Below are positions 3,365 through 41,400 of a DNA stretch of 64,000 bases, in pieces. Positions within the stretch are counted from its first letter, which is position 1, and every line of letters starts with the position of its first letter. The stretch is taken from the IMG/VR virus record IMGVR_UViG_2716884766_000001, positions 1 to 64,000 of that record; one strand, written 5' to 3'. A program made the translations under genes and the position numbers. This stretch comes from a virus. The notes under the pieces are model-generated. The model saw only the letters and a program-made list of their open reading frames with translations. It made no database searches and was not told the DNA's origin.

Positions 3365-6300
3365 TTAGATAATTACCCAACTACCGCCATTTGCGATTGA
3401 AATTGTATACCCATTGTTAACTGTTAGAGGACCAGCAGTGAAACATGAGTCTCCATTATTTATAGTGATACTCTCAGAGATAGATTGACGGTTTCTCTTT
3501 ATTATACCATATCTATCAACCCATTGCTTGTCTCCATTAGCACGAAGAACAACGGATCTCTGACCACTTGATACACCCACAGAACTTGAATCAATGTTAA
3601 GACCATTGTCTCCTCTGATCTCCATTCTGTAAGAGTTCTGAGTTGTGTCACTACCTGGTTCATAGAATGTCCATGTACCATAGTCACCATCACATGAAGC
3701 AATACTGTAGTCAGCATTGTTTCTCCAATAATAGTTATCACCACTACTATAGTATGTATGTGAGTCGTTAGCGAAGTAGAATCTTCTCTGACCTTCAGTG
3801 GTTGTGATCCACTCGTTAGTTGTTCTCTTCAAGTATGGAAGATCTAACGCATGGTATCCGTCAACCATATCAGCGTTCAAGTTAGAGTTAACTGTAGTAG
3901 ATGATATGTTGAATGGAGCAGTACCAGTTGAAACACGTGACCGTATTCTTCCGAAGAAGTGTACAGTAGAATCATTATAACGATACTTCATAACACGAGT
4001 ATCAGATCCACCATCTCTTCTGTAGAATGTTATGTCATCACCAGCTTCAGAGTTGAACGCACCAGGTGAGTTATCTCCATTGTAAGCGATACCACCACCA
4101 TAAGATAATGATTGTCCAACGTATAAGTATCCTGTACCTTGGTTATTACCAAATGCTTCAAAACCACACTGATAAGAGTCACCAGCTAATGCTCTAACAT
4201 ATGTGTTACCACTTCTACTTGTAGTACCAAAGGCAGCGTCTCCAGTAGATTGTAATGATATACCAGGATTGCTATCACCGATACCTAAACGTCCATTTCT
4301 GAAGTATACATTGTTGTATGATAGGTAAGAACCATTGTAACCGAATGAGTTACCATCATTACCAAATCTGATATAACCTTGACTTGAACTATTCTTACCT
4401 TTAATGGATAGAACGTTAGTGGTTGCCTTACCTACGGTAATACCATTACCATCACCAAGATTTAAAATTGATGTACCATTGTTAGTAAAGATACCTTGGT
4501 CACCGTGTATATCACTTACAAAGATATCACCAGATGATGTTCTACGTACAAGGTTGTTGCCCGCGTTGCCAGAGCTCTGAGTATAACCATCAACATAGTG
4601 TGCATCAAGTTGTGAGTTAACACCATCGTTACCCGCATGCCACACTGTGTTACTGTTGATAGTAACGCTACTGGACTTGATGTCCATGAGACCGTTACCA
4701 TTAGATGAGTTACCACCTGAGAACTCGAATCTTACATCATAGTTGTTTGATAGACCACCTGATCTTATATCAAAGTATGGTGTAGATACGATTCCTGCTC
4801 TACCCATTTCAAACAGAGCACCCTCAGCAGTATTGCTTAGAGCGAATACTTGTGAAGCACCTGTTGTTAATAGGTTAGATGATGTAACAGTCCACTTAGA
4901 GCCAGGGTTAGGACCGAAGACTCTGATGTCCTTGTTACCATAAGCACCAACGAATGTTATAGAACCAGTAACAACTGTATACTTAGCGTCTACAGTAGTA
5001 TCATTAGTCTCTGTGATACCACCTGGATCAATAGTGATTGTACCTATGTTATTTACAGCAGCATCATCAGCATATAGAGTGTATGTACCACCCGCTGAAA
5101 GGTTACCCGCAGGGTTTGAACCTGTTGCTGCGAAGAAGTTAGGAATGTATAATTGATATTTCTCTCCAGAGGATACAACGTAGAAGTTGTCAGCGACAAA
5201 CTTGTCTCTACCTAATAGAGTTGGTAAAGCTGGATCGCCAAGAACACCTACTGTTCTCTGGTCATGAATGTTATAACCTTGCTGATACCATAGACCTTGC
5301 TGATTATCTAAGAAGTCAGCGTTAGGACCTGGTAGTGTACCACGACGAGGTTCGTTAATGTCAGGAGGACCATCGTTCTCTGAATGCCATATCTTAGCCC
5401 AGTTACCATATACGTTAGATATGTCTGAGTTACCACGTAAGTATAGGTTGTCTGTAGCAGAGAATGATAACTGAGCAACAGAGTTGCCAGTAGCAGATCT
5501 TCTGAATGTTAATGTACCGTTTCTAGTTCCACCCGCGTCAGTTGGAATACCGTTAACGTTGTTAGATCTGAGTGCTAACTGAGCACCAACGTTTGCTGCT
5601 GATACGAGGTTAGCGTTAGCAGATGATGGAGCAGTTGTCTCAGCGAATAGTACGTTAGAGAAGTCAGCAGTACCAGATATGGATATAGCGTATGTGGTAT
5701 TTGCTAGACGTTGTGGATCAATAACACCTTCAACTAGGTTGGAAGCATTCTGATAGAACGCACCTTGGTTACCATCTAGTTTGTCAGCATTAAGTTCTGA
5801 TCCCGCACCTTGGTCGATGGATACTTCACCATTGTCTGTAACTCTGAATCCACCCTCTGTCTGATCACCAAGTGCTTGTTCAGCAACGTTCTTACGGAAC
5901 TTAGCAATACCGTAGTTACCAAAGACTGAACCACCAGCTTGTAATGTTGTTGGTGTAAGTTTGTTTGCCTTCTTAACGTCAATAGATGCGTTACCGAAGA
6001 ATCTAGGTAGAATACCCTTACGTGCGTTTAGTGTTGCTGCCTGTGATGGTGTACCTAGTTCATTTGGAACTGTTAGTACGAAGTCACCGTTATATCCAGT
6101 ACCTGGTGTAACCACAGATACACTGGTTATGACACCGAATGCTTGTGATGATGTTAGTGTTGATACACTGATCTCAACTGGTTGCTGTACTGTACCACCG
6201 AATAGAGGACCATCGAAGGTTAGTGTGTCACCACCTAAGTATCCAGATCCACCATTTAGTATGAGGTCAACTGATAGTGTACCTACACCGTCAGTAGTAA

Positions 6301-9300
6301 ATCTTATTTGAGCACCTAGACCCGCACCAGTTGTTGTAGATGGTGCTACGTCAAAGGTTGAGTTTGCTGTGTATGATTCAGGTGTCTGATTAAGGTTACT
6401 TACAGTAGCGATAATACCACCAGTAGTAACGTCAGCAACTGTGTAAGTAGCACGTGCTACTCCTGAGTCAGAGATAGGTACGTTACCACCCAACATTGGG
6501 ATGTTCTGATATGTACCGTTTGTATATCCTGTTCCTGCGACTGTTATGTCAACCTTCTCAATGTATGATGTGTCAGATAGACTTGACTCAGCAACCATAC
6601 AGTCAGCAGTTGAGAACTTGATAGACTGTATAACGTTCTGGTAAGAACTATCACCTCTTAAGAATGTGAATGAGTTCGCTATACCTGTTTTACCTAAACG
6701 CTCTGGGTCAATAGTACCCGCAACGATGTTAGATGCGTCAATGTTAGTTGATGATAACTGTGTCCAGTTAGCAGCGTCTTTAGCAGATGTGTTAACTGTT
6801 CTAATGACATCAACGATCTTCTTACGTTCGTAGTTACCAGATGTTAGCAGTGCGACTGCTGTTATAACTGTGTACTCGTTAGCGTTAACTGGAGTTACAT
6901 CATAGAAACCTGATGGAGATGAACCAGATGTAAAGTTAAGGTATACGATGTCACCTTGACTAAATCCATGATTGAGTTCTGTGACTGTGATATCGAATGT
7001 ATCATGTACGTATGTACCTGTAGCAACTGTCTGATTTGCTTCGTCTTGTAAGAAGTCAACGTTAGAGTACTTAATATTGTTCGCTAGGTCAACAGCTAAT
7101 CTTGCTTCAACTCTTGCTACATTACCTTGAGAAGTAGCAGTTGTACCACCTGTAGGAGCAGCAGTGAAGGTTACAGTAGGTTGTGTGAAGTATCCAGAAC
7201 CTTTGTTTGTAATTGTTATTGTGGATACTTGTCCGTTAACGATTGTACATGTCGCTGTTGCTTGTGTACCTGAACCGCCAGGTGCTGAGATTGTAATACC
7301 TGGTGGGTTTGTATATCCAGATCCAGTGTCGTCAACTAGAATGTCTCTAACAACACCTTGCTCATATCCTGTAATGATACCTTGAGCACCACTAGCAGAA
7401 CCAATAAGTATGTTGCCAGGTGTATATGTTAATGTTGAGTCAGGTGTGAACGCTACGAACATAGTGTCCAAATCATTCTCAAGAATGTAGGATATAGCAG
7501 CACCTTCAGTACGTAATGTATGAGTACCAGATCCTTGACTTGTTAGATTTCTAGCAGTACCACCTTGAGCATCAGATAGTGATGTAGCAAGTTTGATGTA
7601 GTCTGTGGTGTTAGCACCTACAGAGTGTACGATCACATAGTACTGAGCACCGTCTGCCAAGTTACCAATGTTACCAGTTCCTTGGAAGTAAGTTAGAATA
7701 TCACCTGTTGCTAGTCCGTGACCAGGTATTGTGATGTAGTTGTTAACTGTATCAACTGAAGCTGGTACGAATGTGAATGATGTAGATGTAGTTTCAATAG
7801 CGATGTCACCAGCTGATGCGTCTTCGATTGCTAGTCTCTCTGCTGTAGAAGCTACAGATGTAATATTGAATGGACGTAACGCAGGGATCTGTTCAATGTT
7901 GATCTTACCAGAGGTAGTCAACTGTACCAGAGCAGATGGAACAGCGTTAGTTGAGAATGGCTGGTTTAGGTATGGACCTAGTTTGTTAGTGATGTAATCC
8001 TTAACCGCTGCCTGTGTAGGTAGTAAGGAGTCAGAAGCGAACGCACCACCTAGTTCGTCACTGTCTGAAAATCCAGTGATAGTAATGGATCCACCAACAA
8101 TCTTAATAGATGAAAGTTCAGAGATACTAACAGTACCAACGAAACTAATAGAACCAGTTCTGTTGAAGATAGTAACGAAGTCTCCAACCTTGAAGTCACC
8201 AAACTCGTTAGTACCTGATGTATAAACCTGTCCGAATGATTCTTCAACAGCTTCGTTAGCAGGGATACCAACACCACCGTTTTGTGGTAGTGCTAAGTAT
8301 GTGTCACCCGCACCAACATATTCCCACGTATGTGAGGAAGAGTTACATACAGATGGTCTGTGTAATCTTATAGTCTTACCAACCAGAGTATCTAAGTTAC
8401 CCTGATCATATGATACTTCTGTATTTGTTGCGGTCTCATTTAGAGAAATTCCTAGACCGTCGTTTGTTGTAATATTAGCAGTAACCTGTGTACCGATAGA
8501 ACCAGATAACTTCTCTACACCTAGAATAAAGTATTCTTTAGCAGGGTCAGTATTAGTGTAACCATCAAACTTGATGATGTAATCTTCAATCGGGAAGTTA
8601 GTTAGTGTTGATCCACCAACCTCGATGATCTGACGACCTGTCTGAGCACCATTGTTATCAGTTTGGTTAACAACGTTTGTAACTGTACCTATGTCAAACT
8701 CATAAGCATCCTTTCTAAATCCAGTTGCTTTAAGAGCACGAGTACCGAAGTTAGACGCTGAGTTAGTTAGTGATGCATATCCACCTGACTGTACGATAAC
8801 TCCGTCTCCACCGAAGATAACGAACACAGACACCAACTGAGTATATCCATCGTTAAGAATGTTGTATCCAACACCACCACCGACTGAGATGATCGTGAAT
8901 GCGTTGGCAACCATTGACTTACCCTGTTTAGGGAAGACAGCACGTTCTCTACCGTTAGCATCTTGATAGACACCTGGTCTGGGAACGTTAGGTTCAGCAA
9001 CTTTAGCACCGTCAATCTCAGCACCTGACGCTCCTAAGAAGGAGATCAATGATGCGTTCTGAATATAAGGTGATGCCTCGATGACTGGTAGGTCAAGTAA
9101 GTCACCTAACATAGGAACTATTTTAAGACCACTGTCATCTTTAAGCAGTGTGCTTGGTTCAGTTAAGGTAACGCTACTTAGTGATGTAGGTGTAGCAAGA
9201 GCATTATCTAAAATTGTATGTAATGCTGTTAGAGCATTGATAGCAGCTCCACACTCAGGTTGATTATGATCAACTGTAGATGATGCGTTATGGAATGGTG

Positions 9301-12300
9301 CTATAGATGTAAACTTAGCTTCTGGTAACTGGTTACGTATAGCAAGGACTGCCATGTCCTTTGCCTTCTGGTATACAGCACGTGTTTGAGCAACTTCGTT
9401 GTTAACGTAGTTGATATTTGTTCCGAGAATATATTTGCTTGCGGCTTCAATAGTCTTCTTGTTACCACCATATCTTAAGTCATACATCCATGAACGTAGA
9501 ACATGTCTTACGTCATCAATACATTGATCATCAGATACAGGATATGTTCTAGCGACACCATCAAGATTACCAGGTGTACCTGTAGTACCGATAGCTTGTG
9601 TAATTATACCAGTTAATGTTGTGATAGAAGAAGCAACGTCAGCACAACGGTTAACGTATGATGCTGTTCTGGTTACAGATGATAGACTTCCTGTGTCAAT
9701 CGCAACCTCAACGATATTCATTAAGGTAGTGATAGAAGATATAACCACGTTACAGATTGGTAGACCTGTATCCTGTGTGATAGTTAGATCTTTAACCTGT
9801 GCTATAGATGTATGTCCACCTGTTACTACAGTCTCGTTCTGGAATACTTCGATAGCAACTTTCTGTGCCTCTCGTAAAGCATATATTGAATGATGTTCTT
9901 CACCTTCTAGATGAGCACCAGTAACATACATGTTAGCAGCGTCATAGGTAAAGTCGTTTCCACCCATTGCTAGGTTCCAAGAAACAACCTGTAGAATATC
10001 TACAACGTCATCCTTACAGTCAACGTTAGTACCTGATACTTCAACACCGTTAGAAGTAGCAGAGATGAATCTGTGTGGGAAGTCACCACCACTCTTAACA
10101 ACGACTCTGTTGATACATCCTGTTGTAGCACTTACGAATGTATGTGCTGTGGTGTTAGTAGGTGTAGTTCCTTGTAAAGCATTGAACTCAAATGTGTCAG
10201 CAGTTACACGCTCAATCTTAACAGACTTGTTGAATATAGGATCGCCAGGTCTAGGATAAGCATGGTTAGTTACGTTACTGTCTTGAGCACAAGTGAATAC
10301 GATACTCTCTTGATCTACCTTGATATAGTCTCCTGCGATCAAACCATGACCAACTTTGGTTACTGTCATCCAACCAGTAGTTGAGTTGTAATCAACAGTT
10401 GTAGGAGTTACTCCTGTAGCAGGAACAAAGGTGTGATCAGTTACGTTAGTAGAAGGTGTCTGACTTAGAACATTAAAGTTTAGAGTTGTGTCTTTAACAC
10501 TGATACCATTAGCAGTAGCAGATACGAATGCGTGAGTAGTCTCGTTTGAAGATGTTGCGATACAAACCTCGAATGTATCTTTATTAACAACCTTGACATG
10601 TCTCCACTCATTACTGTCTGGGTCTTTTTGAATGATTCCATTTGCTACAGCAGATACAAATACGTGTGTAGTAGTGTTAGTAGATGGAGTTACATCTAAA
10701 GTCTTAAATGAGAATGTATCGTTACTTACAGCAGTAACAGGAATGAATATGCCACTGATAGGATCAGTTGATCTTGGATATGCGTGTTCAGTTGCGTCAC
10801 CATCTTGTCCACATGTAAATGTGATAGCACCATCTTTAACCTTGATGTACTCACCTTTCTTAATACCGTGACCAGCTACAGTGACTGTTACTACACCAGT
10901 AGCAGTGTTGTAACTAGCATCTGTTGGTGTAAATTTCTTTCTCTCTGCTCTTGGATATGAATGGTTAGTAGCATTGCTGTCATGATCACATGTAAATGTG
11001 ATTGAGTCATCAGCAAACTTAACCATGGAGTCTTCTCTCAATCCATGATCAGCAGACGTAATTGTTATCTTACCTTCTGTTGGTACATATACTGCGTTAG
11101 TTGCTGTTAATGTTGAATCAGTAATAGATGTAATTTCAACAGCAGTATCATATAGTGGGTCTTTCTTGATTGATAGACCATTTGTTGTAGCAGATACAAA
11201 TGTATGAGCAGTTGTGTTGGTTGAAGGAATGTTACCTACACCCAATACCTGTACGTTAAATGTATTAGTAGAAACGTTTGATACAGTTAACCATCTGTCA
11301 TTAGCATAGTCTGTTGCTCTTGGATATGTATGGTTAGTACCATTATTATCCTCCATACAAGTGAATGTTAATGAGTCAGTAGCAAACTTAACCTGATCTC
11401 CATTAGCAAGACCATGGTTAGATGCTGTAACTATCATCACACCTGTAGAACCTTGATAGTTAGCACTCTCAACTGTGTCTGTGTCTACAGCAGATCTTGG
11501 ATAGTATTTGGTTGATACGTTACCATCTTGTGTACATGTGAACCCTATTGAATCAGGAGCAAGTCTCATGTATGTTCCTGCCTTAAAGTTGTTAGTACCA
11601 ATGTTGACAGACATAGCCCCTGTATTTGGGTTATATGCTGCGTCTCTTACATCGTACCCGTCAACAGTTGTAGGTCCTACATTGATGTCAATAGTATTAA
11701 CACTAGCAGATACAACAGGTGACCAACCATTACCATTAGCAGGGTCGGTTGCTCTTGGATATGTGTGAGTGGTATTACCATCATCCATGTCACATGTCCA
11801 AGTCATGCTATCAGTAGCAATCTTAAGATACTTGGAAGTGTCAATACCGTGACTTAAGATAACAGCGTCAGCTAAAGCATTCTGGAATACATGAGTAGAT
11901 GTATCACTAGAAGCACCAACGTTAACTGTAATAGTTGAACCAGATACTGCTGTAATTGCTAGGTCTTGCTCGTAAGCCCTATCTCTCTTCTTCTCTAATC
12001 CATTTGCTACAGCAGATACAAATGTATGTGTTGTAGTGTTTGGTGATATTGCTACGTTAACTTCAAATCCTAATCCTGTAGTGTTAGAAACTTCTAACCA
12101 CTTACCAATAACAGGATCTGTATCACGTGGATATGCGTGACTACCTGTACCAGCTTGACAGTCAAATACGATTGACTCTTCTTTGAATCTGATCCAGTCA
12201 CCATCAGTCAATCCATGACCAGCTGTTGTTGTTACGCTTAGTACACCAGTACCAGGTGTGTATACTGCCCCAGAAATTGTTGAGGTATCAATAGTAGTAC

Positions 12301-15300
12301 GTGGATAATAGTGATCAGTAGACTGTCCATCAAGATCACATCTGAAGTTAAGTGATCCTGTTTTAATTCTAATCTTATCGTTAGTCGTTAATGTATGAGT
12401 ACCGATATTAAGTTCTAGTAAACCTGAAGAAGGAGTGAATGAAGCAGCTGATACTTGTTTAACATCAGTATTAACTGTTACTGTCATCAATCCAGTAGCA
12501 GGATTATATTCTGCGTGTTGAGCAGTTCTCTTTTGTGGAGATGGAACGTTGAATGTTCTAGGTGTAGTCTTCTTGATAGCGTTTAGACTATCGTTAAGAA
12601 TAGCACTGTGTATGATTTCAAATAATGAATCTACAGCAGCTTTTACCTCTACACAGTCAGCAGCTGTATGTCTACCAGCTGAGTTTGATACATCATGTGT
12701 AATAGTGAGATCAAATGTCTGTGTTAATCCATGATCACCTCTTACCACAACCTCGTTGTTAGCAAGAACTAATTTACAAATTTCTCTAGCATGTTCGATA
12801 CAACGAACTGATTGGAACTCCTCGTCATCTAGGTGAGGTGTACCAACATAATACTTCGCAGCATCCCATACTTTATTGTTACCACCGTGCTGTACGTTGA
12901 AAGCAACAGCATCAACAATATCTACGATGTCATCTATACAATCTTGTCCGTTACCTGTTGGAACGTGTAGTGTGGGATCTTCAGCAAGTTCCCAAGCATA
13001 TGCCTCAGCACCGATAAACTCTCTGTTAGCAATTAGTAGATCGTGAGCATCAACTACCTTGTTATTAGCAACTTCAAATCCAAAGTCAGCATTCATTCTA
13101 CCGACTGCTATGTCAGCAATGAACTGTCTGTTAGCCCATATTAGGTTACGAGCATCAGCATGTTTGTTACTTTGACCTGATCCTGCTGCGTCAGGAGTAA
13201 TTGTAAAGTCTCTAATCTGTGTAAGACCATGACTACCCTGTACAGTAACAGGATCATTTCTCATGATCTGTATAGCAATGTCTCTTGCGTGGTTGAATGT
13301 CTCTACAGATTCATTCTCTTCACCTACGACATGAGAACCATCAACGTAATACTTAGCACCATCCCATACTTGGTCGTTACCACCGTATGCTAGGTTATAT
13401 CCCATTGCCTCACAGTAGTCAACAATATCATCAATACATGCTTGGTTACCAGTAGGAACCTGATATGATGGGTTGTTGGCAAGCATTCTGTCTACTGCTT
13501 CCTGAGCAATAAACTGTTTGTTAGCAAGGATTAGAGATGTACCATCAGCAGATCTATCTGAAGGAGGTACACTGTTTGGTGTCTGCCATGGAGCAGGGAC
13601 TGTTATTGTAATATCTCCACTGTCTGTGCTAGCACCACCTAAGATAATGGTAGCAGTTCTGTGGTCAGCAACATCATCTATGATGTATGAACCATCAGGA
13701 GTAGCACCACTGAATACTATACTATATGCGTTCTTACCAAATACACCATGACCTCTTGGGCAGACAACTGTCATTACATTACCAGAGCATGTGTATGTAC
13801 CCTTTCTTGTAAATGTGGCAGAAGTTCCTGCGTTATTTAATTTCTTGACGTGAGCATATGACTCTAAAGCTATAAAGTCAACGTTGTTATTGATTGTCTC
13901 AGCACCGTCTCTTTGCTTAGACATCTCTTTGAAGTCAGCACCAAACTCAACCTTCTCAAATGCGTAAGGAGAGTTCCTTAATGACATCAAAGCATAGTTT
14001 GTAGCAGAACAAACCTGTTGGTCTCCAGATGGATCAAAGTCTGTAGCAAACTTAGAACATGAACCTCTGACTACAAACTTAAGTGAGTAACCATCAGCAC
14101 GTTCTATACGATGTGTAACGTATTTTCTTCCGTTGAAGTCACCAAGGTTATCAAAGATAGCAGCACTACCAGATCTAGTAACACTGTCTGATCCTCTGAT
14201 TATAAAGTATACTTCGTTTGTTGATGCGTTATATCTAGCAACACCAGCTCCTAAGTTAGAACTGCCACCCAAAATAGTAGCAAAATCACTCTGTGCTTGT
14301 GCTAGTGTACCAGCTCTATATGTCGCAACATGGAATGATTTATCTTGATGTTGACTACCAGTACCACTAAAGTTAAGACGAATACCAACACCCTTGTCAG
14401 CTGGAGGAGCATCAGAAATACTGATCAACGTTGGCCAGATCACATTCATCTTAGAAGGATCTGTATTAGCAAACGTTACTGTAAGAGTATTGCCACTCTG
14501 GGTGTATGTACCGCTAGCACTGGTACCAAAGTCTATAGGACTATATGGTAGACCGTAGATATGAACTTCTTGTCCTGCTTCGTAGTCATGACCAACAAAA
14601 GGAATACCTTCTATTGTTCTGGAAGCAGAAGTTACCTCAAAGGAAATACCTCTGTAAGTCTCTTGTGTGTTTAACGAACTATCGACTTGGTTGATGTCAA
14701 TAACGTTAAGTGCTTTCTCGAATCTATGATAACCTTTACCTATATCCGTGATAGGAAGGATAACAGGATCATCAGCACCAGATATATCAATATTGGTAGC
14801 ATCGGCTTGAGTATTTGCGACTTGGAAATAGTTGTTGTCTACTTTATAGACGTAGTATAGACCATTATTTGTAAGACCACCTATGTCCCCTGCCTTTGAA
14901 GAACGATAGTATACACCGTTACCAGTGAATAAACCATGCTTAGGGAAATAGAATGTATTATCTTTTACACTAATTCTACATGTGAAGAGTGTGTGTTCGT
15001 CTCCTGTACCAGGATCACCTAGGTCTCTTCTACCTGTGGTTGTTTGTAAGTTAAGTGCGTTAGCAGCAGTATCATATAATTCTAATGAATTGTCATCTAT
15101 AACTCTAACAAAATATGAGTCACCAGATGTTAAACCAGCTGGAGCAGTGCCACCTTCATTCTCTACTTTATATTCTACTTTGAAACCAGTCTTTAATCTG
15201 TGTAGAGGAACAGATATTTGATTTGTAGTAGCATCTACGATAGTAGCATTACTACCATCGAAACGTAATGTCTCTGTCTCAGAGTTAATTACCCACTGAT

Positions 15301-16780
15301 ACCTTTGGTGTTTGATAACCTCAGTTTCAGGTCTTTGTGATTCTCTATCAGCAACGTCGAGTGAGTCAGATGGTGAAGCACCTGTCTTAACGATGTTAGC
15401 GTAGACATCAGCATAGTATAATCTTTCAGCGAGCTGGAAGGTTGATTCATCATCATCCATCAGTACCGTGATAGTACCAGATGAGTATGGTGATGCTTGA
15501 GGACCTGTAAACGTGACAGCTTCAATGATCGCTCTAGCAGAAGATGATCCACCCTCTACAGCGTATCCAACAAGTAATGTAGTATTGTCACCTGTGTGGT
15601 TCTCAAATGTAATAGCAAAGATGTTTCTACCTTTGTTTTCTAGACCTGGTGAGAACTCAAATGGTTCTAGGTCTGGTTCATACATTAATCTCTGCTTATC
15701 GTCAAACACATAAGCATACTTCCATGTATAGTCAGGAGATCCATTAGCATCTAAGTGGTCTCTGAATACAACACCAGAACAATACGTCTCGTTTGACGCT
15801 TTGATCATGTGTCTGTCCATGTTTAATGGACGTAGGATAACTCTTCTTAAGTTATCTCCAATCAGTGAACAGTTAAATGGTAGAGAGATCGGGTTGTCTT
15901 CTACATAATCACCACCTGAACAGATGATAGAAACATATTCAGGAGTCTGTGTGTCTTGCTGTAAACTATAAGCTATCTGTGCTGCTTTCTTAATTGTACG
16001 AACTGGTTTAGCAGCTGATCTACCATCGTTAGCATCATCACCAATACCAGCTACAGATGATACGTAAACACGACCACCATTGTCAGCAGTAGCAACGTCA
16101 TATACAAACTTGGTAGTAGCAATTCTATTATTCTGTGTCTGACGAGGAGGGTTGTCAGCAGTTGGATAGTAGATTGTACCAAAGTCAGAAGCTGTTGGGT
16201 CTGTCTCTTCAAAGTTAATTAAATTAGGACCTCTAAGGTCTAGTCCCTTAGTAACAAACTCGTTAGTAACGTCTAGGTTTCTAATTTGAGCAGTATCTGA
16301 GATGATAGATCTTGTAGTTCTGATCTGTCCTTCAACGTCAAGGTCAAACTCAGGATTGGTGTTGTTAATACCAACACGAACGTTACCTGTAGCACTCTTG
16401 GTTATGAATATAGCGTCTTCTTCATCAGCACCTGATCCGATACTGAACTCCATCTTGTCAGATGCGTTAAAAGTTAATGATCTAACACTTCTGTATGATA
16501 TTGATGTGGCAGCTTCAATAAAGTTTGTACCTGTACCTGTAATTGTAAATGTATCTTCGTCTACGACAGTAATATTATAATTTCCAGCTGTAAAAGTTCT
16601 TAGTAAACTATCTTGACCTGGCTTAACGTATAAGAGATCGTTGTTGTTTAACTTGTGAGCAATAGATGTAACAGTAACTATACCATTCGCACGTCCATAC
16701 GTAGCACTTGTCCACGGACCCTGCGGGACCTGACCTGTACCCTCTATTCTCTGTTGCGAAGAACTCTGCCTAAGTGTCAT
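3365..16780 (-). CDS. Giant tail-fibre / virion structural protein (4471 aa) with nested repeat domains
   Basis: N-terminal pectin-lyase-like beta-helix start (VYVS...DGRSAAKPVRTIKKA); nested helical and beta repeats; G.GY...P hairpin repeats; fibre-shaft motifs LNADKLDG, NADFLD, LDAHYVDG, LNADMVDG; C-terminal AGPLTVNNG...GGSWVII. Confidence 0.85.
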   Translation of the reverse strand: MTLRQSSSQQRIEGTGQVPQGPWTSATYGRANGIVTVTSIAHKLNNNDLLYVKPGQDSLLRTFTAGNYNITVVDEDTFTITGTGTNFIEAATSISYRSVRSLTFNASDKMEFSIGSGADEEDAIFITKSATGNVRVGINNTNPEFDLDVEGQIRTTRSIISDTAQIRNLDVTNEFVTKGLDLRGPNLINFEETDPTASDFGTIYYPTADNPPRQTQNNRIATTKFVYDVATADNGGRVYVSSVAGIGDDANDGRSAAKPVRTIKKAAQIAYSLQQDTQTPEYVSIICSGGDYVEDNPISLPFNCSLIGDNLRRVILRPLNMDRHMIKASNETYCSGVVFRDHLDANGSPDYTWKYAYVFDDKQRLMYEPDLEPFEFSPGLENKGRNIFAITFENHTGDNTTLLVGYAVEGGSSSARAIIEAVTFTGPQASPYSSGTITVLMDDDESTFQLAERLYYADVYANIVKTGASPSDSLDVADRESQRPETEVIKHQRYQWVINSETETLRFDGSNATIVDATTNQISVPLHRLKTGFKVEYKVENEGGTAPAGLTSGDSYFVRVIDDNSLELYDTAANALNLQTTTGRRDLGDPGTGDEHTLFTCRISVKDNTFYFPKHGLFTGNGVYYRSSKAGDIGGLTNNGLYYVYKVDNNYFQVANTQADATNIDISGADDPVILPITDIGKGYHRFEKALNVIDINQVDSSLNTQETYRGISFEVTSASRTIEGIPFVGHDYEAGQEVHIYGLPYSPIDFGTSASGTYTQSGNTLTVTFANTDPSKMNVIWPTLISISDAPPADKGVGIRLNFSGTGSQHQDKSFHVATYRAGTLAQAQSDFATILGGSSNLGAGVARYNASTNEVYFIIRGSDSVTRSGSAAIFDNLGDFNGRKYVTHRIERADGYSLKFVVRGSCSKFATDFDPSGDQQVCSATNYALMSLRNSPYAFEKVEFGADFKEMSKQRDGAETINNNVDFIALESYAHVKKLNNAGTSATFTRKGTYTCSGNVMTVVCPRGHGVFGKNAYSIVFSGATPDGSYIIDDVADHRTATIILGGASTDSGDITITVPAPWQTPNSVPPSDRSADGTSLILANKQFIAQEAVDRMLANNPSYQVPTGNQACIDDIVDYCEAMGYNLAYGGNDQVWDGAKYYVDGSHVVGEENESVETFNHARDIAIQIMRNDPVTVQGSHGLTQIRDFTITPDAAGSGQSNKHADARNLIWANRQFIADIAVGRMNADFGFEVANNKVVDAHDLLIANREFIGAEAYAWELAEDPTLHVPTGNGQDCIDDIVDIVDAVAFNVQHGGNNKVWDAAKYYVGTPHLDDEEFQSVRCIEHAREICKLVLANNEVVVRGDHGLTQTFDLTITHDVSNSAGRHTAADCVEVKAAVDSLFEIIHSAILNDSLNAIKKTTPRTFNVPSPQKRTAQHAEYNPATGLMTVTVNTDVKQVSAASFTPSSGLLELNIGTHTLTTNDKIRIKTGSLNFRCDLDGQSTDHYYPRTTIDTSTISGAVYTPGTGVLSVTTTAGHGLTDGDWIRFKEESIVFDCQAGTGSHAYPRDTDPVIGKWLEVSNTTGLGFEVNVAISPNTTTHTFVSAVANGLEKKRDRAYEQDLAITAVSGSTITVNVGASSDTSTHVFQNALADAVILSHGIDTSKYLKIATDSMTWTCDMDDGNTTHTYPRATDPANGNGWSPVVSASVNTIDINVGPTTVDGYDVRDAAYNPNTGAMSVNIGTNNFKAGTYMRLAPDSIGFTCTQDGNVSTKYYPRSAVDTDTVESANYQGSTGVMIVTASNHGLANGDQVKFATDSLTFTCMEDNNGTNHTYPRATDYANDRWLTVSNVSTNTFNVQVLGVGNIPSTNTTAHTFVSATTNGLSIKKDPLYDTAVEITSITDSTLTATNAVYVPTEGKITITSADHGLREDSMVKFADDSITFTCDHDSNATNHSYPRAERKKFTPTDASYNTATGVVTVTVAGHGIKKGEYIKVKDGAITFTCGQDGDATEHAYPRSTDPISGIFIPVTAVSNDTFSFKTLDVTPSTNTTTHVFVSAVANGIIQKDPDSNEWRHVKVVNKDTFEVCIATSSNETTHAFVSATANGISVKDTTLNFNVLSQTPSTNVTDHTFVPATGVTPTTVDYNSTTGWMTVTKVGHGLIAGDYIKVDQESIVFTCAQDSNVTNHAYPRPGDPIFNKSVKIERVTADTFEFNALQGTTPTNTTAHTFVSATTGCINRVVVKSGGDFPHRFISATSNGVEVSGTNVDCKDDVVDILQVVSWNLAMGGNDFTYDAANMYVTGAHLEGEEHHSIYALREAQKVAIEVFQNETVVTGGHTSIAQVKDLTITQDTGLPICNVVISSITTLMNIVEVAIDTGSLSSVTRTASYVNRCADVASSITTLTGIITQAIGTTGTPGNLDGVARTYPVSDDQCIDDVRHVLRSWMYDLRYGGNKKTIEAASKYILGTNINYVNNEVAQTRAVYQKAKDMAVLAIRNQLPEAKFTSIAPFHNASSTVDHNQPECGAAINALTALHTILDNALATPTSLSSVTLTEPSTLLKDDSGLKIVPMLGDLLDLPVIEASPYIQNASLISFLGASGAEIDGAKVAEPNVPRPGVYQDANGRERAVFPKQGKSMVANAFTIISVGGGVGYNILNDGYTQLVSVFVIFGGDGVIVQSGGYASLTNSASNFGTRALKATGFRKDAYEFDIGTVTNVVNQTDNNGAQTGRQIIEVGGSTLTNFPIEDYIIKFDGYTNTDPAKEYFILGVEKLSGSIGTQVTANITTNDGLGISLNETATNTEVSYDQGNLDTLVGKTIRLHRPSVCNSSSHTWEYVGAGDTYLALPQNGGVGIPANEAVEESFGQVYTSGTNEFGDFKVGDFVTIFNRTGSISFVGTVSISELSSIKIVGGSITITGFSDSDELGGAFASDSLLPTQAAVKDYITNKLGPYLNQPFSTNAVPSALVQLTTSGKINIEQIPALRPFNITSVASTAERLAIEDASAGDIAIETTSTSFTFVPASVDTVNNYITIPGHGLATGDILTYFQGTGNIGNLADGAQYYVIVHSVGANTTDYIKLATSLSDAQGGTARNLTSQGSGTHTLRTEGAAISYILENDLDTMFVAFTPDSTLTYTPGNILIGSASGAQGIITGYEQGVVRDILVDDTGSGYTNPPGITISAPGGSGTQATATCTIVNGQVSTITITNKGSGYFTQPTVTFTAAPTGGTTATSQGNVARVEARLAVDLANNIKYSNVDFLQDEANQTVATGTYVHDTFDITVTELNHGFSQGDIVYLNFTSGSSPSGFYDVTPVNANEYTVITAVALLTSGNYERKKIVDVIRTVNTSAKDAANWTQLSSTNIDASNIVAGTIDPERLGKTGIANSFTFLRGDSSYQNVIQSIKFSTADCMVAESSLSDTSYIEKVDITVAGTGYTNGTYQNIPMLGGNVPISDSGVARATYTVADVTTGGIIATVSNLNQTPESYTANSTFDVAPSTTTGAGLGAQIRFTTDGVGTLSVDLILNGGSGYLGGDTLTFDGPLFGGTVQQPVEISVSTLTSSQAFGVITSVSVVTPGTGYNGDFVLTVPNELGTPSQAATLNARKGILPRFFGNASIDVKKANKLTPTTLQAGGSVFGNYGIAKFRKNVAEQALGDQTEGGFRVTDNGEVSIDQGAGSELNADKLDGNQGAFYQNASNLVEGVIDPQRLANTTYAISISGTADFSNVLFAETTAPSSANANLVSAANVGAQLALRSNNVNGIPTDAGGTRNGTLTFRRSATGNSVAQLSFSATDNLYLRGNSDISNVYGNWAKIWHSENDGPPDINEPRRGTLPGPNADFLDNQQGLWYQQGYNIHDQRTVGVLGDPALPTLLGRDKFVADNFYVVSSGEKYQLYIPNFFAATGSNPAGNLSAGGTYTLYADDAAVNNIGTITIDPGGITETNDTTVDAKYTVVTGSITFVGAYGNKDIRVFGPNPGSKWTVTSSNLLTTGASQVFALSNTAEGALFEMGRAGIVSTPYFDIRSGGLSNNYDVRFEFSGGNSSNGNGLMDIKSSSVTINSNTVWHAGNDGVNSQLDAHYVDGYTQSSGNAGNNLVRRTSSGDIFVSDIHGDQGIFTNNGTSILNLGDGNGITVGKATTNVLSIKGKNSSSQGYIRFGNDGNSFGYNGSYLSYNNVYFRNGRLGIGDSNPGISLQSTGDAAFGTTSRSGNTYVRALAGDSYQCGFEAFGNNQGTGYLYVGQSLSYGGGIAYNGDNSPGAFNSEAGDDITFYRRDGGSDTRVMKYRYNDSTVHFFGRIRSRVSTGTAPFNISSTTVNSNLNADMVDGYHALDLPYLKRTTNEWITTTEGQRRFYFANDSHTYYSSGDNYYWRNNADYSIASCDGDYGTWTFYEPGSDTTQNSYRMEIRGDNGLNIDSSSVGVSSGQRSVVLRANGDKQWVDRYGIIKRNRQSISESITINNGDSCFTAGPLTVNNGYTISIANGGSWVII
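9188..13915 (-). repeat. Four nested ~140-aa helical repeats (D[AG]..LI..N..FIA / C.DD / GGN / C..V...I)
   Basis: Four N-terminal motifs, four C.DD-GGN cores and four terminal Cys helices appear in bracket-like rather than tandem order. Coordinates are approximate. Confidence 0.8.
10031..12524 (-). repeat. Eight nested ~100-aa beta repeats (A.Y.P.TG / HGL / FTC..D / H.YPR..DP / H.FVSA..NG)
   Basis: Eight F/W-x-C motifs and eight YPR motifs in the translation, with motif order showing insertion of copies into copies. Coordinates are approximate. Confidence 0.85.
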
Positions 16781-38400: not shown

Positions 38401-41400
38401 TTGTAGTACCAGATACGAATGTGTGAGTTCCAACTGCAGCATCACAAGTAAATGTGATACCACCATCAGAGATCTTAAGAGTTGTGCCTCTAACATGTAG
38501 ATTATATGCTACTGCTGCCTTGAATATGTGATCAGTTGTGTTAGTAGATGGAGCTGTGTTTAATACTTGTACTTTAAATGTATTTCTAGTTACATCTGTA
38601 ATAGGTTGCCATAGTTCACTGATAGGATCACTGCCTCTAGGATAAGCATGGTCACTAGCATGACTATCTTCCTGACATGTGAAGATAAGTGAGTTGTCAT
38701 CTATGATAATCTCATCTGTAGGTGTCAAACCATGATTCTCACAAGTTACAGTCATGATACCTGTAGTAGGATTATAGTCAGCACTGTCTATGCTGAGTGT
38801 TCTTTCAGATCTTAGTCCATGAGGTATAACAACAGCACCAGTAACAGCAGTTTGGAAGGTATGAGTATGTCCACCACCACTCTGTACAGCATCATTAGCA
38901 ACATAACCTGGTTTCCATCTGTGAGTAGATGTATTAGTAGATGGTGTAGAACTTAATGACTGGATAGTTATAGATGTGTCTGTAACAGCAGTAATTGTTA
39001 GAGCAGCTCCACTAGCAGGGTCACTAGGTCTTGGATATGAGTGGTCTGTCTGATAGAAGTCCATCAAACACTGATATACAAGAGAGTTATCTGTAATTGT
39101 AATAGCATCACCAACCTTGAGGATGTGATTGCCGATAGTTAACTCAACAAGACCTGTAACTGGATCGTAGTTTGAACCTGTGACAGTATGATTGACTAAA
39201 GGACTAGGTCCTACGTTAACTGTGATTGTATTATTTGTCTTCGCAATAATCTTAAGTGCTTTATCATAGAATGGATCTTTTCCAAATCTAGGATACATCT
39301 TAGTAGCATTGTTACCGTCCATTGAGCATTTGAATCCCAATGACTCAGGTCTGAACATAATCTCTTCACCTATCTCCATGCTGTGTGAACCAATGTTCAC
39401 TGTCATAGAACCTGTATTAGCATTATAGGTAGCAGCAGATACATTGAACTGTGTGTTATAGACTTCCATGTCCATATCACCAGTAGCAGGGTCATAGGTG
39501 GCATCTGTAATCTGATAGTTTACAGTAGGAGACTCTCCGACATACAATGTGATCGTAGTTCCTGTCTTAGAAAGGATAGGAAGTGACTTACGGTATGCCC
39601 AGTCTGTAGATCTAGGATATTTGTGATGTGTAACACTACCATCTTGAGCACACTTGAATGTCAATGACATATCATCAAGTTTAACTCTTGTTCCTACCTC
39701 TAGACTATGAGATCCTATTGTTATCTCTACTTGTCCTGATGTGGCAGTGTATACAGCGTTAGTTACGTTGTACTGAGTAGCATCAGTGCTCTGATATGCT
39801 GTAATTGTAGGATCTTTATACTGTGACTTGTCTGTAAGGTTAAGATGTGAGTATGTCTCGAATGATTCCTGTTGTATTGCCTTCAATACCATCTGACGTG
39901 CTTCTTCAAACACATAAAGTGTCTCTGCCTCTTCTCCTGCCACATGACTTCCTACGAAATACATGTTCAGTGTGTCATATAGAGTATGGTTACCACCATA
40001 TGCCACGTTAGTAGCAACTGCGTTCAATACATCTCTTGTATCAGACTTACATTGTCCATCACCCAAGCCAGGTGCGTTAAATCCAGTAGGAGCAGTCCTC
40101 GTAAAGGCACTCATAGTGTTAGTATCTACTGCTACCTCGACAATATTCATTAAAGTGTGTATTGTTGCTCTAGCACTAGCACATTGATTATCAGACCTAG
40201 TAATACCACCATCATACTTCTGTATCTCACCGTGATCACCAACTACAGTCACCGCTTCGTTAGCAATAACCTGTCTGGCTATCTTGTCAGCCTCACGGAA
40301 GGCATAAATCGTATGAATCTCTTCACCTGCTACATGAGCACCATCAACATAGTACTTGGCAGCATCGTATACCTCACTATTACCACCAAACTTAGCATTG
40401 ATAGCAACTGCCTCTAATACATCTCTTACATCATCAACACAGTCCTCATCATTGCCTGTTGGTTCTACAAATAGAGTTGGTTCTGTCTTATTGACATGGA
40501 TCATCAAGTCAGTATTGATAGCAGTAACAACAATATCAACAAACGTACTGATAGCGGACTTAGCACTAGCACAGCCGTCGTATATGTAAGTAACGTCTTC
40601 AAAGTATTGTTCATAACCATGATCTCCTGCGATTGATACTGTCTCATTCAAGATTACCTTGTCCATCAGACCTTTCATCTGATTAACAGCTGCTATTGTC
40701 TGCTGTTCTTCACCTTGTATTACACTACCAGAACTATATGCTGATGTGTAGTAGAAGGAAGCATCATATACCTTATTATTAGCACCAAATAGTAAGTTGA
40801 AAGCAATCGCTTCCAATATATCCATCAAGTCATCTCTACAGTCTTGTTCTGTGTATCCCTGAGCATGTGTATAACCAGGATAGTCAATAGTCTTGAATAG
40901 GTAGTATGCTTCCCAGACAATAAAGTCTTTGTTTGCCATAATCAAGTTATAGGCATCAAAGTGTCTCTTGTTAGCAATAGTATATGGTATATCAGCATGC
41001 ATCCTATCCACTGCTTCTCTAGCAATGAAGTCCTTATTCATTAAGATAAGGTTAGCTGCGTCTGCTACCTTGTTATCTACAGGTGTACCATACTTATTCA
41101 TCAGTCCCACAGCAATGTCTGCTATGACTCCTGCGTTGTTGTCAATCAGTGTTCTAGCATCAGCATATTTGTTATCGGTGACAAAAGTAGCACTATCGAG
41201 GACATTTGTTACAACTATGTTACCAGTTGCCCCCGATCCGTCTGATAATTTGTTAGTGAATGGAACGTTGTTGTATGTACCCGCAGTATAGCCTGTACCT
41301 TGATATACTCCATCAGTTGTATTCAGGGCGGTGATAACATCACCAAACTGATCTAACTGGAAGTTTCCAGATATATCAGATCTCTTGAAGTACATTATGA

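What the first reader, a model, noticed from the sequence alone, without database searches (positions are those of the whole stretch)
9188..13915. Four helical modules nested three deep in the 4471-aa protein
Seen parse: H1-N (RDGAETINNNVDFIA, ~13915) [H2 (ADGTSLILANKQFIA...CIDD...YGGN...TITPD, ~13560) [H3-N (ADARNLIWANRQFIA, ~13168) [H4 complete, ~13066-12590] FNVPS [beta tree] H3-C (CKDD...MGGN...CNVV, ~10030)] H2-end (CADVASSI, ~9652)] H1-C (CIDD...YGGN...CGAA, ~9532). Every copy keeps two Cys (C.DD and the terminal C). Inference: these are a possible disulfide clamp that holds the discontinuous halves together. Counting the beta tree, nesting reaches about 8 levels (scaffold>H1>H2>H3>A>D>F>G).
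Basis: partly seen in the sequence, partly recalled or inferred. Interest (0 to 1): 0.85.

Follow-up and report, generated by a model that had tools for sequence, protein, structure and literature searches.

The report
Nested phycobiliprotein-like domains in cyanophage fibre
A giant tail-fibre protein of a marine T4-like cyanophage holds four copies of a helical domain inserted one inside another, and that domain is a relative of the host's light-harvesting phycobiliproteins that still keeps their pigment-attachment residues.

Summary
The 4471-aa ORF (window 3365-16780, minus strand) holds exactly four opening helix pairs, four cores (C.DD...GGN...TIT.D) and four closing helices. Their order is N1[N2 K2[N3[N4 K4 C4] beta-tree K3 C3]C2]K1 C1. 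Only 55 of 34,650 possible orders of these pieces are well nested.

Bracket pairing rests on orthologues. One has H2 uninterrupted. Two have the same nest without the 841-aa beta tree. Others have beta trees of about 735 to 1800 aa. The halves were not seen touching in a model, because no coordinates are returned.

New here: the module is a phycobiliprotein (globin-like) fold. H4 alone models at pLDDT 93 and matches phycoerythrin beta at Z 15.4, rmsd 2.2 A. A profile of 141 modules reaches E 4e-5 against phycobiliproteins. The two cysteines align with the bilin-attachment sites beta-Cys82 and beta-Cys153.

The disulfide-clamp idea is not supported. Across 906 modules the first Cys is kept in 97% and the second in only 43%.

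An open lead: the modules co-occur with a phage CpeT lyase gene in 20 of 20 genomes, but this reflects only one or two events on the tree. An earlier report of this scan (e1-5336035) reached the same reading on a 3,633-aa relative.

The parts
3365..16780 (-). 4471-aa tail-fibre-type virion protein (P0001). It is the orthologue of P-HM2 PHM2_096 and S-PM2p091, both annotated 'tail fiber protein'.
   Evidence: ORF list. PHROG phrog_5342 'tail fiber protein' at E 0. tblastn gives 68% identity to the P-HM2, P-HM1 and MED4-213 fibre genes, with the same gene order of gp7, a 177-aa protein, then the fibre.
13829..13912 (-). H1-N: opening helix pair of the outermost module (aa 957-984). It corresponds to phycobiliprotein helices A and B.
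   Evidence: Opening-piece HMM hit. Aligns with the first 28 columns of H4. The Asp of the 'RDGAE' motif is invariant in orthologues.
13550..13828 (-). Small beta domain (aa 985-1077), the first insert in the H1 loop, lying ahead of H2.
   Evidence: Predicted as strands in the model of the orthologous stretch (residues 46-117). Present in P0337, P0033 and P0001.
13175..13549 (-). H2 opening helices plus core (aa 1078-1202), ending at TITPD. Its closing helix is 1180 aa downstream.
   Evidence: HMM hits. The genome search match C3:13184-13555 covers profile positions 1-127 of 166.
13064..13159 (-). H3-N: opening helix pair of module 3 (aa 1208-1239).
   Evidence: HMM hit. The genome search match 13082-13165 covers profile positions 1-28 only.
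12557..13054 (-). H4: the intact innermost module (aa 1243-1408), with a phycobiliprotein-like fold.
   Evidence: Full-length profile match at E 2e-57. AF2 pLDDT 93, pTM 0.90. Z 15.4, rmsd 2.2 A over 142 residues to phycoerythrin beta 5aqd_M.
10019..12541 (-). Beta tree (aa 1414-2254), a second insert in the same H3 loop, splitting the F.VP|TGN motif.
   Evidence: Cleanly absent from P0033 and P0035, whose flanks are 70% identical. About 735, 1050 and 1800 aa long in P0013, P0004 and P0010.
9656..10018 (-). H3-C: core plus closing helix of module 3 (aa 2255-2375).
   Evidence: HMM hits. The genome search match 9659-10066 covers profile positions 24-162.
9536..9646 (-). H2-end: closing helix of module 2 (aa 2379-2415), with a distinctive glycine-rich extension after the helix.
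   Evidence: the genome search match 9539-9655 covers profile positions 128-162 only. In P0337 the orthologous helix, with the same distinctive extension, follows the H2 core directly.
9146..9523 (-). H1-C: core plus closing helix of the outermost module (aa 2420-2545).
   Evidence: HMM hits. The genome search match 9149-9541 covers profile positions 34-164. 48% identical to rejoined H1 of P0337.
39695..41158 (-). A second nest in the 4940-aa ORF (P0002 aa 3040-3527): Na Nb [Nc Kc Cc] Kb Cb Ka. Its outermost closing helix follows a beta tree at window 37457-37555. An intact module lies at 42056-42487.
   Evidence: HMM hits and the genome search matches. It shows the same building rule in a second protein of the same phage.

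Best explanation
This stretch is a genuine recursive domain insertion. A roughly 165-aa helical module has been inserted into itself three times. The module consists of an opening helix pair, a core starting C.DD, and a closing helix starting with Cys. H1 encloses a small beta domain and H2. H2 encloses H3. H3 encloses the intact H4 and, in this phage, also an 841-aa beta tree.

The module is a phycobiliprotein-fold (globin-like) domain. It most resembles phycobiliprotein beta subunits and lacks their N-terminal X-Y hairpin. Two loops accept inserts. One is the loop between helix B and helix E, just before the VPTGN motif (used in H1 and H3). The other is the loop between helices G and H, just before the second Cys (used in H2).

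Inferred mechanism: each inserted domain is tied to its parent by two strands. Repeated insertion therefore builds a branched, out-and-back stalk on the beta-helix scaffold. This stalk carries the fast-changing beta tree, the probable host-contact part, away from the fibre body. Layers are gained and lost as whole units between related phages.

The two conserved cysteines are not a clamp for split copies. They are the inherited counterparts of the bilin-attachment sites beta-Cys82 and beta-Cys153. Their present role is unknown.

Shown: the piece order, collinearity with H4, the orthologue series, the fold and its sequence relationship to phycobiliproteins. Inferred: physical reunion of the halves, the stalk and display function, and the absence of a disulfide.
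For: Only 55 of 34,650 orders are well nested, and all 46 homologues with equal piece counts parse as valid nests.

Orthologue series: P0337 has N1, a beta domain, an intact H2, then K1C1. Its H2 is 59% identical to rejoined H2 of P0001 and carries the same distinctive closing helix. This forces the N1-K1 and K2-C2 pairings, and N3-K3 follows by elimination. P-HM2 PHM2_096 has H2 split by one intact module. P0033 and P0035 have the full four-module nest without the beta tree. Beta-tree length varies from about 735 to 1800 aa in close relatives.

The same rule appears in the second giant ORF of the window and in S-PM2p091. Nests with five modules on the stack occur in 34 homologues.

Fold: H4 models at pLDDT 93. 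The eight best structural matches are all phycobiliproteins at Z 11.7-15.4, with globins below them. In the model of the orthologous nest the matches reach Z 17.4.

Sequence: a profile of 141 modules against PDB sequences gives 118 hits, the listed top 60 all phycobiliproteins, best E 4.3e-5. Cys1 aligns with Cys82 and Cys2 with the GDC motif of helix H. 42 of 141 modules hit PF00502 on their own.

BFVD models of other cyanophage fibres superpose on H4 across inserts of about 90-120 residues, with TM 0.79-0.82 over 266-290 alignment columns.
Against: No contact map or coordinates were available. The packing of N1 on K1C1 and of N3 on K3C3 is therefore inferred from homology and orthologue states, not seen.

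The model of the whole nest is only moderate (pLDDT 75.9, pTM 0.57, 14-sequence alignment).

A test of whether N-piece and core subtypes go together gave only weak, non-diagonal support.

No orthologue with an uninterrupted H1 was found. The intact inner module of P-HM2 cannot be assigned to H3 rather than H2 or H4 (36-41% identity to each).

P0001's own modules fall below Pfam's PF00502 cut-off (15.7 bits against 22.2).

The display function is conjecture.
Confidence: 0.8

Rival explanations
1. Disulfide clamp: the C.DD cysteine and the closing-helix cysteine of each module form a disulfide that holds the discontinuous halves together in the extracellular virion.
For: Both Cys are present in all four modules and invariant in 13 orthologues. 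Virions sit in oxidising seawater, where free cysteines are unusual (general knowledge).
Against: The same pair is present in intact H4 and in 340 contiguous modules, so it is not specific to split copies. Across 906 distinct modules the counts are Cys1 with Cys2 382, Cys1 alone 495, Cys2 alone 5, neither 24. The intact inner module of P-HM2 lacks Cys2. The two positions align with beta-Cys82 on helix E and beta-Cys153 at the start of helix H. In solved phycobiliproteins these carry two separate bilins on different faces (textbook knowledge, not measured here). In the H1 and H3 splits both Cys lie in the same C-terminal part, so a bond between them could not tie the opening piece to the rest.
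Confidence: 0.07
2. Pigmented modules: the conserved Cys and Asp are still bilin-binding sites. Phycoerythrobilin made by the phage PebS-like enzyme is attached to the virion modules. The phage CpeT-type lyase would serve the Cys153-like site, and a host S-type lyase or autocatalysis the Cys82-like site. The fibre and baseplate would then respond to light.
For: C-x-x-D is kept in 97% (Cys) and 99% (Asp) of 906 modules that are only 20-40% identical overall. The Asp39-like residue goes with Cys2 (odds ratio 15.6, not corrected for relatedness).

The only CpeT gene in the 1.6-Mb assembly is on the phage contig. The host CpeB has Cys82 but no Cys at the 153-like site, so the phage lyase has no evident host target. 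A PebS-like gene is also on the phage contig.

Modules and CpeT co-occur in 13 genomes and are both absent in 7, with none discordant.

P-HM1 and P-HM2 do not adsorb in the dark, while P-SSM2 and P-SSP7 do. That paper cites Jia et al. 2010 for S-PM2 adsorption being light-dependent and independent of host photosynthesis (PMC6628666). The benefit of bilin genes to Prochlorococcus phages is stated as unclear in PMC2984593.
Against: On a baseplate-gene tree the four marine phages lacking both form one clade, and S-CRM01 is the outgroup. The co-occurrence therefore needs only 1-2 events and has no statistical weight. The adsorption correlation has the same flaw.

P0001's modules read C-I/K-D-D, having lost the Arg84 counterpart. 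The B-E loop that covers the Cys82 bilin is about 6 residues shorter. It, and the G-H loop at the second site, are exactly where large inserts sit. No pigment in cyanophage virions turned up in the literature searches.
Confidence: 0.13
3. No true nesting: the orphan opening pieces (N1, N3) and the orphan closing helix (C2) are decayed remnants of partial duplications, or free-standing helical linkers. The cores K1, K3 and K2 would then fold without them or pair with neighbouring pieces.
For: Physical pairing was not observed (no coordinates). In several structural alignments the helix of H3-N lies where the phycobiliprotein Y helix would lie on H4 (model 270-290 aligned with chain 13-18). It may therefore contact H4 as well.
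Against: The counts are exactly 4:4:4 and the order is well nested. The same holds in 46 of 46 homologues with equal counts. The orphan pieces are as conserved as the rest, with invariant Asp, Asn and Ile positions. P0337 shows the same H2 closing helix directly joined to its core. A core lacking helices A and B, or lacking helix H, would be an incomplete globin-like fold.
Confidence: 0.04

Closest known systems
Phycobiliprotein beta subunits (phycoerythrin and phycocyanin beta; Pfam PF00502)
   Same: Same globin-like fold from helix A to helix H: Z 15.4-17.4, rmsd about 2.2 A over 131-146 residues. Detectable sequence relationship, profile E 4.3e-5. Shared motifs: DA.N.I..N, P.GN, C-x-[RD]-D at the Cys82 site, and a Cys at the start of helix H like beta-Cys153.
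   Different: No X-Y hairpin, since matches start at chain residue about 31-35. The B-E loop is about 6 residues shorter. A nearly invariant GGN motif follows helix E. The domain sits inside giant virion proteins rather than in alpha/beta light-harvesting discs. It serves as host and guest of domain insertions. Pigment binding is unknown. P0001's own copies score below the Pfam cut-off.
Si3 insertion of cyanobacterial RNA polymerase beta' (eight SBHM domains; PMC10895346)
   Same: A solved case in which copies of one domain type are not in tandem. Four of the eight are built from distant parts of the chain because other copies lie inside them, and together they form an elongated projection.
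   Different: A beta fold (SBHM) rather than a helical globin-like fold. It belongs to a cellular enzyme, not a virion protein. Here the nest also carries unrelated beta modules, and the depth varies between close relatives.
Tail-fibre proteins of cultured T4-like cyanophages: P-HM2 PHM2_096, P-HM1 and MED4-213 homologues, S-PM2p091 (T4-like gene clusters 513 and 830)
   Same: Orthologous scaffold at 55-68% identity in the C-terminal beta-helix part, with the same gene neighbourhood. All carry nests of the same module.
   Different: The nest state differs. P-HM2 has three modules (N1[..K2[NKC]C2]K1C1). S-PM2 has one intact module plus a four-deep nest at the first loop only. Neither has this phage's arrangement or its beta tree.

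Membership tests
Phycobiliprotein family (PF00502) | Globin-like fold with helices A, B, E, F, G and H | tested here: met
   H4 model at pLDDT 93. 5aqd_M Z 15.4, rmsd 2.2 A, 142 aligned residues. The top 8 matches are all phycobiliproteins. Z reaches 17.4 in the nest model.
Phycobiliprotein family (PF00502) | Score at or above Pfam's gathering cut-off (22.2 bits) | tested here: not met
   P0001's H2 scores 15.7 bits, E 0.015. H4 gives no PF00502 hit at E<=1. In the wider module family 42 of 141 members hit at E<0.1, best 9.3e-6. A 141-sequence profile reaches E 4.3e-5 against solved phycobiliproteins.
Phycobiliprotein family (PF00502) | N-terminal X-Y helical hairpin that makes the alpha/beta monomer | tested here: not met
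   Structural matches of H4 begin at chain residue 33-35 and sequence matches at residue 37. The module has no residues ahead of helix A.
Phycobiliprotein family (PF00502) | Cys82 with Asp85 (C-x-R-D) at the bilin site | tested here: met
   Cys1 aligns with Cys82 in HMMER and hhalign alignments. Cys is present in 97% and Asp in 99% of 906 modules. Arg is present in 71% of those modules but is replaced by Asp in P0001.
Phycobiliprotein family (PF00502) | Covalently bound bilin | not testable with these tools
   Needs spectroscopy or mass spectrometry of the protein or of virions.
Nested (recursive) domain insertion | The separated parts of the parent domain are collinear with an intact copy, and the piece counts balance | tested here: met
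Nested (recursive) domain insertion | The guest is a complete, independently folding domain | tested here: met
   H4 alone folds with pLDDT 93 and pTM 0.90.
Nested (recursive) domain insertion | Relatives exist with the parent uninterrupted or with the guest absent | tested here: met
   H2 is intact in P0337. The beta tree is absent in P0033 and P0035. No uninterrupted H1 was found, and an uninterrupted H3 is only suggested by P-HM2.
Nested (recursive) domain insertion | The separated parts reunite in three dimensions | tested here: inconclusive
   The nest model has pLDDT 75.9, but no coordinates or contacts are returned. BFVD models of other fibres superpose on H4 across inserts.
Disulfide-stapled domain | The two Cys are conserved or lost together | tested here: not met
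   495 modules have Cys1 alone, 5 have Cys2 alone, 382 have both.
Disulfide-stapled domain | The sulfur atoms lie within bonding distance | not testable with these tools
   No coordinates. By alignment the sites equal beta-82 and beta-153, which bind separate bilins in solved structures (textbook knowledge).

The most novel reading that the evidence does not exclude
The phycobiliprotein-fold modules of cyanomyovirus fibre and baseplate proteins are pigmented in the virion. Phycoerythrobilin from the phage's own PebS-like enzyme would be attached by the phage CpeT-type lyase to the Cys153-like site, and by a host S-type lyase or autocatalysis to the Cys82-like site. These pigmented modules would be the long-sought light sensor behind light-dependent adsorption of phages such as P-HM1, P-HM2 and S-PM2. 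This would also explain why phages of Prochlorococcus, which lacks phycobilisomes, carry bilin-synthesis and lyase genes.
Probability: 0.13. Interest if true: 0.95.

Novelty: new variant of a known kind. Interest (0 to 1): 0.8.

Why it matters
Domain insertion is common, but self-insertion of one fold four deep is rare. Relatives reach five or six deep, and the layers come and go between close relatives. The only comparable solved case found is the Si3 insertion of cyanobacterial RNA polymerase. The nest gives a concrete rule (two permissive loops, whole-unit gain and loss) for how cyanophages build and vary their giant adsorption proteins.

The nested unit is also a host-type phycobiliprotein fold that keeps the pigment-site Cys and Asp in over 900 divergent copies. 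The literature searches here found no report of this. It turns two open questions into bench experiments. One is why Prochlorococcus phages carry cpeT and bilin reductase genes. The other is what makes adsorption of P-HM1, P-HM2 and S-PM2 light dependent.

Tried and rejected
Nothing was folded.
- Foldseek with the whole 781-residue nest model gave no match at E<=0.001. Only local phycobiliprotein hits appeared. VIA-align on that model always chose the intact H4, so it could not report on the split modules.
- A test of whether N-piece and core subtypes correlate across 131 intact modules favoured bracket over crossed pairing only weakly. Values were 0.25 and 0.56 against -0.46 and -0.33, and the matrix was not diagonal, so it was set aside.
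- The first count of Cys pairs was biased, because local HMM hits start at the Cys. It was redone with offsets and with hmmalign.
- hhalign of the module profile against the single host CpeB gave only 17% probability, E 0.0014.
- tblastn with the phage CpeT finds only 59 records and is too insensitive for a co-occurrence count.
- The 20-of-20 co-occurrence of modules and CpeT loses its weight on a tree: 2 changes and 1-2 independent pairs.
- A regex parse of the beta tree missed pieces and did not give a clean tree.
- megablast of the region against phage records found nothing.
- The genomic context of a distant module-rich protein (P0123) was uninformative.
- The paper on the phage CpeT lyase (PMC5336146) is not held. 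My recollection that it bound bilin but did not transfer it to host CpeB is unverified and is not used as evidence.

Full report
**What the window is.** The window carries four giant minus-strand ORFs of 4471, 2377, 2229 and 4940 aa. The 4471-aa ORF (3365-16780; P0001) matches PHROG 'tail fiber protein' phrog_5342 at E 0. By tblastn its C-terminal scaffold is 68% identical to the 'tail fiber protein' of Prochlorococcus phages P-HM2, P-HM1 and MED4-213, and 55% identical to S-PM2p091. The gene order is the same: gp7, a roughly 177-aa virion protein, then the fibre. The window is contig C3 of a 1.6-Mb, 95%-complete assembly. So the phage was assembled together with a small cyanobacterial genome, whose size and single CpeB gene fit Prochlorococcus.

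**Checking the observation.** The alignment is almost gap-free over about 165 columns, with 44% (H2), 36% (H3) and 22% (H1) identity.

I then built separate HMMs for the opening helices (N), the core (K) and the closing helix (C). They find exactly four of each in P0001, in the order N1 N2 K2 N3 N4 K4 C4 ... K3 C3 C2 K1 C1. The only other hits in the window are in the 4940-aa ORF. Of the 34,650 orders of 4 N, 4 K and 4 C, only 55 parse as properly nested modules.

**Is it true nesting with bracket-matched halves?** I collected 348 homologous giant proteins and wrote each as a string of pieces.
- All 46 proteins with equal N, K and C counts parse as valid nests.
- Recurrent patterns include NNKNNKCKCCKC (this family), KCNNNKCKCKC (the 4940-aa family) and NKNKNKNKNKCCCC. 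The last occurs in 34 proteins and has five modules open at once, with one closing helix undetected.
- A third insertion site, inside the core, is also seen in some patterns.

The decisive evidence is a series of orthologues.
- P0337 (3190 aa) reads N1, beta domain, an uninterrupted H2, then K1 C1. Its H2 is 59% identical to the rejoined H2 of P0001. It carries the same unusual glycine-rich extension after the closing helix.
- In P0337 the only opening piece left for K1 is N1, so N1 pairs with K1. By orthology the same holds in P0001. K2 pairs with C2, and N3 with K3 by elimination.
- P-HM2's PHM2_096 has H2 split by one intact module.
- P0033 and P0035 (3633 and 3629 aa, 70% identical in the flanks) have the full four-module nest but lack aa 1414-2254, the beta tree. 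Their sequence shows that the beta tree of P0001 splits the F.VP|TGN loop motif.
- In P0013, P0004 and P0010 the beta tree is about 735, 1050 and 1800 aa long.
- S-PM2p091 has an intact module followed by N N N (N) K C K C K C K C.

Layers are thus added and removed as whole units.

What I could not do is see the halves touch. The model of the orthologous nest (P0033 aa 945-1725) is of moderate confidence (pLDDT 75.9). Independent BFVD models of other cyanophage fibres do superpose on H4 across inserts of about 100 residues, with TM 0.79-0.82 over 266-290 alignment columns.

**What the module is.** Weak Pfam hits to 'Phycobilisome protein' looked like noise until they recurred. PF00502 is precomputed on dozens of the homologues.
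- A three-sequence profile gave only phycobiliproteins among its weak PDB hits.
- A profile of 141 diverse intact modules (A3) gave 118 PDB sequences at E<=1. The listed top 60 are all phycobiliproteins, best E 4.3e-5.
- 42 of the 141 modules hit PF00502 individually, best 9.3e-6.
- H4 modelled with that alignment has pLDDT 93 and pTM 0.90.
- An all-against-representatives structural search puts phycoerythrin beta first (5aqd_M, Z 15.4, rmsd 2.2 A, 142 residues, model 1-156 on chain 33-184). Allophycocyanin, the ApcE bilin domain and other phycobiliproteins follow at Z 11.7-14.3. Sensor globins and haemoglobins lie below, at Z 11 down to 6.
- In the nest model, H4 matches beta subunits at Z up to 17.4.

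The module is therefore a phycobiliprotein-fold domain without the X-Y hairpin.

**The two cysteines.** The alignments place Cys1 (C.DD) on the bilin-binding Cys82 (AAC-LRD). The Asp three residues later falls on Asp85. Cys2 falls on the Cys of the GDC motif that starts helix H, which is beta-Cys153. Counting back along the ungapped helix in the structural match gives the same answer: model 451 equals residue 172, and model 432 equals residue 153. The Asp of the opening DA.N motif aligns with beta-Asp39.

All eight Cys and these Asp residues are invariant in 13 orthologues. Across 906 distinct modules from all 348 proteins:
- Cys1 is present in 97% and the Asp in 99%.
- Cys2 is present in only 43%.
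- 495 modules have Cys1 alone, 5 have Cys2 alone, 24 have neither and 382 have both.
- The Asp39-like residue accompanies Cys2 (odds ratio 15.6, uncorrected for relatedness).

A pair that is so often unpaired is not an obligate disulfide. It is also no more frequent in split modules than in intact ones. In H1 and H3 both Cys lie in the same C-terminal part, so a bond between them could not tie the opening piece to the rest. By homology they sit at two separate pigment sites. I rate the clamp idea unlikely, with the reservation that the distance was not measured.

**How it most likely works.** Shown: a phycobiliprotein-fold domain with at least two permissive loops has been used repeatedly as both host and guest of insertions, in at least two virion proteins of this phage and across marine T4-like cyanophages.

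Inferred: because a guest domain leaves and re-enters its host at one point, each level is held by two strands. The result is a branched projection from the beta-helix scaffold. Its outermost and most variable part, the beta tree, is the likely host-contact region. The nearest solved analogue of this building style is the Si3 insertion of cyanobacterial RNA polymerase. There, four of the eight SBHM domains are made from distant parts of the chain (PMC10895346).

**An open lead.** The near-total retention of the pigment-site Cys and Asp calls for an explanation.
- The only CpeT-type lyase gene in the whole assembly is on the phage contig (141-aa ORF). A PebS-like bilin reductase is also there.
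- The host's single phycobiliprotein, CpeB, has Cys82 but no Cys at the 153-like position. T-type lyases serve that position (PMC10452541).
- Across 20 phage genomes, the module and CpeT are both present in 13 and both absent in 7, with no exception. The absence in P-SSM2 was confirmed by an unfiltered six-frame search.
- P-HM1 and P-HM2 do not adsorb in the dark, whereas P-SSM2 and P-SSP7 do. That paper cites Jia et al. 2010 for S-PM2 adsorption being light dependent and independent of host photosynthesis (PMC6628666).

However, on a baseplate-gene tree the four marine phages lacking both form one well-supported clade, and S-CRM01 is the outgroup. One or two events therefore explain everything, and the pattern has no statistical weight. 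P0001's modules have also lost the Arg84 counterpart and shortened the loop that covers the Cys82 pigment. I give the pigment reading about 13%.

**Literature and earlier notes.** Full-text searches found no report of phycobiliprotein-like domains in cyanophage virion proteins, nor of this nesting. An earlier follow-up of this scan, on a 3,633-residue relative in another genome (e1-5336035), reached the same two conclusions and named the Si3 analogue. I reached the fold and the orthologue series before seeing it, and took only the Si3 comparison from it, which I then checked in the paper.

**Verdict.** The nesting is strongly supported by comparative evidence. The disulfide clamp is not supported. 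The claimed depth of about 8 levels is unverified. The modules are phycobiliprotein-fold domains, which is the more consequential result.

Noticed in passing
whole assembly G000; window = contig C3:1-64000: The phage contig (at least 97 kb of it is addressed) belongs to a 1.6-Mb, 95%-complete, 32-contig assembly whose size and single CpeB gene fit Prochlorococcus. It is probably an infected single cell or a co-binned phage.
   Followed up: partly
L005:1489-1914 (-) = G000:C3 about 78.0 kb; L009 = G000:C3:96157-96708: The phage contig carries a 141-aa CpeT-like gene, the only CpeT hit in the assembly, and a 207-aa PebS-like ferredoxin-dependent bilin reductase. Both lie outside the window.
   Followed up: partly
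L004:1414-1941 (-) and L004:885-1421 (+): The host's single phycobiliprotein (CpeB, 175 aa) keeps Cys82 (VCLRD) but has no Cys at the 153-like site. The neighbouring 178-aa ORF looks like an S-type lyase by its GEW.S.R..H motif; this was judged by eye only.
   Followed up: no
window 39695-41158, 37457-37555, 42056-42487 (4940-aa ORF, minus strand): A second nest, Na Nb [Nc Kc Cc] Kb Cb Ka, then a beta tree, then Ca, plus one intact module. The linkers between the three opening pieces are only 2-10 residues long.
   Followed up: partly
homologues P0015, P0020, P0036 and others (34 proteins): Pattern NKNKNKNKNKCCCC: five modules open at once, all inserted at the G-H loop. One family reaches NKNKNKNKNKNKCC... 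with six open. P0024-P0029 show a third insertion site inside the core, near profile column 37.
   Followed up: partly
window about 12541-12556 and 10019-10045 (aa 1405-1413 and 2246-2254); also P0002 aa 3100-3108 and 3270-3280: The loop at the insertion point looks partly duplicated on both sides of the insert (FEVANN before, VEVSGTN after; in P0002 YTIANK before, FVEPTGN after). The two may pair as a two-stranded stalk, or they may be a trace of how the insertion arose.
   Followed up: no
model m9f9c58961ce8 residues 270-290 (P0033 aa 1214-1234, equivalent to H3-N): In about a third of the structural alignments, the second helix of H3-N lies where the phycobiliprotein Y helix lies relative to H4 (chain residues 13-18 onward). 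This hints that the parent's opening helices also pack on the guest.
   Followed up: no
L001:6454-17487, PHM2_096 aa 1528-1685: The intact inner module of P-HM2 keeps Cys1 (CVDD) but has no Cys2, a natural single-Cys variant in a cultured phage.
   Followed up: no
window 13550-13828 (aa 985-1077): In the nest-model search, phage phi92 endosialidase gave a local match (4hiz_C, probability 1.0, 90 columns). Which part of the model it covers is not reported, but the small beta domain inserted ahead of H2 is a candidate. Elsewhere, inside the beta tree (aa 1512-1534), Pfam gives a weak E1_FCCH hit.
   Followed up: no
proteins P0122-P0269 (library representatives, sources unnamed): Giant proteins with up to 35 matched stretches of the module. 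Many read C-[AKE]-R-D-[VIL]-G-[YL], which by recollection resembles the Cys84 motif of phycocyanin alpha, and mostly lack Cys2. Their organisms are unknown; one contig examined (L003) was uninformative.
   Followed up: partly
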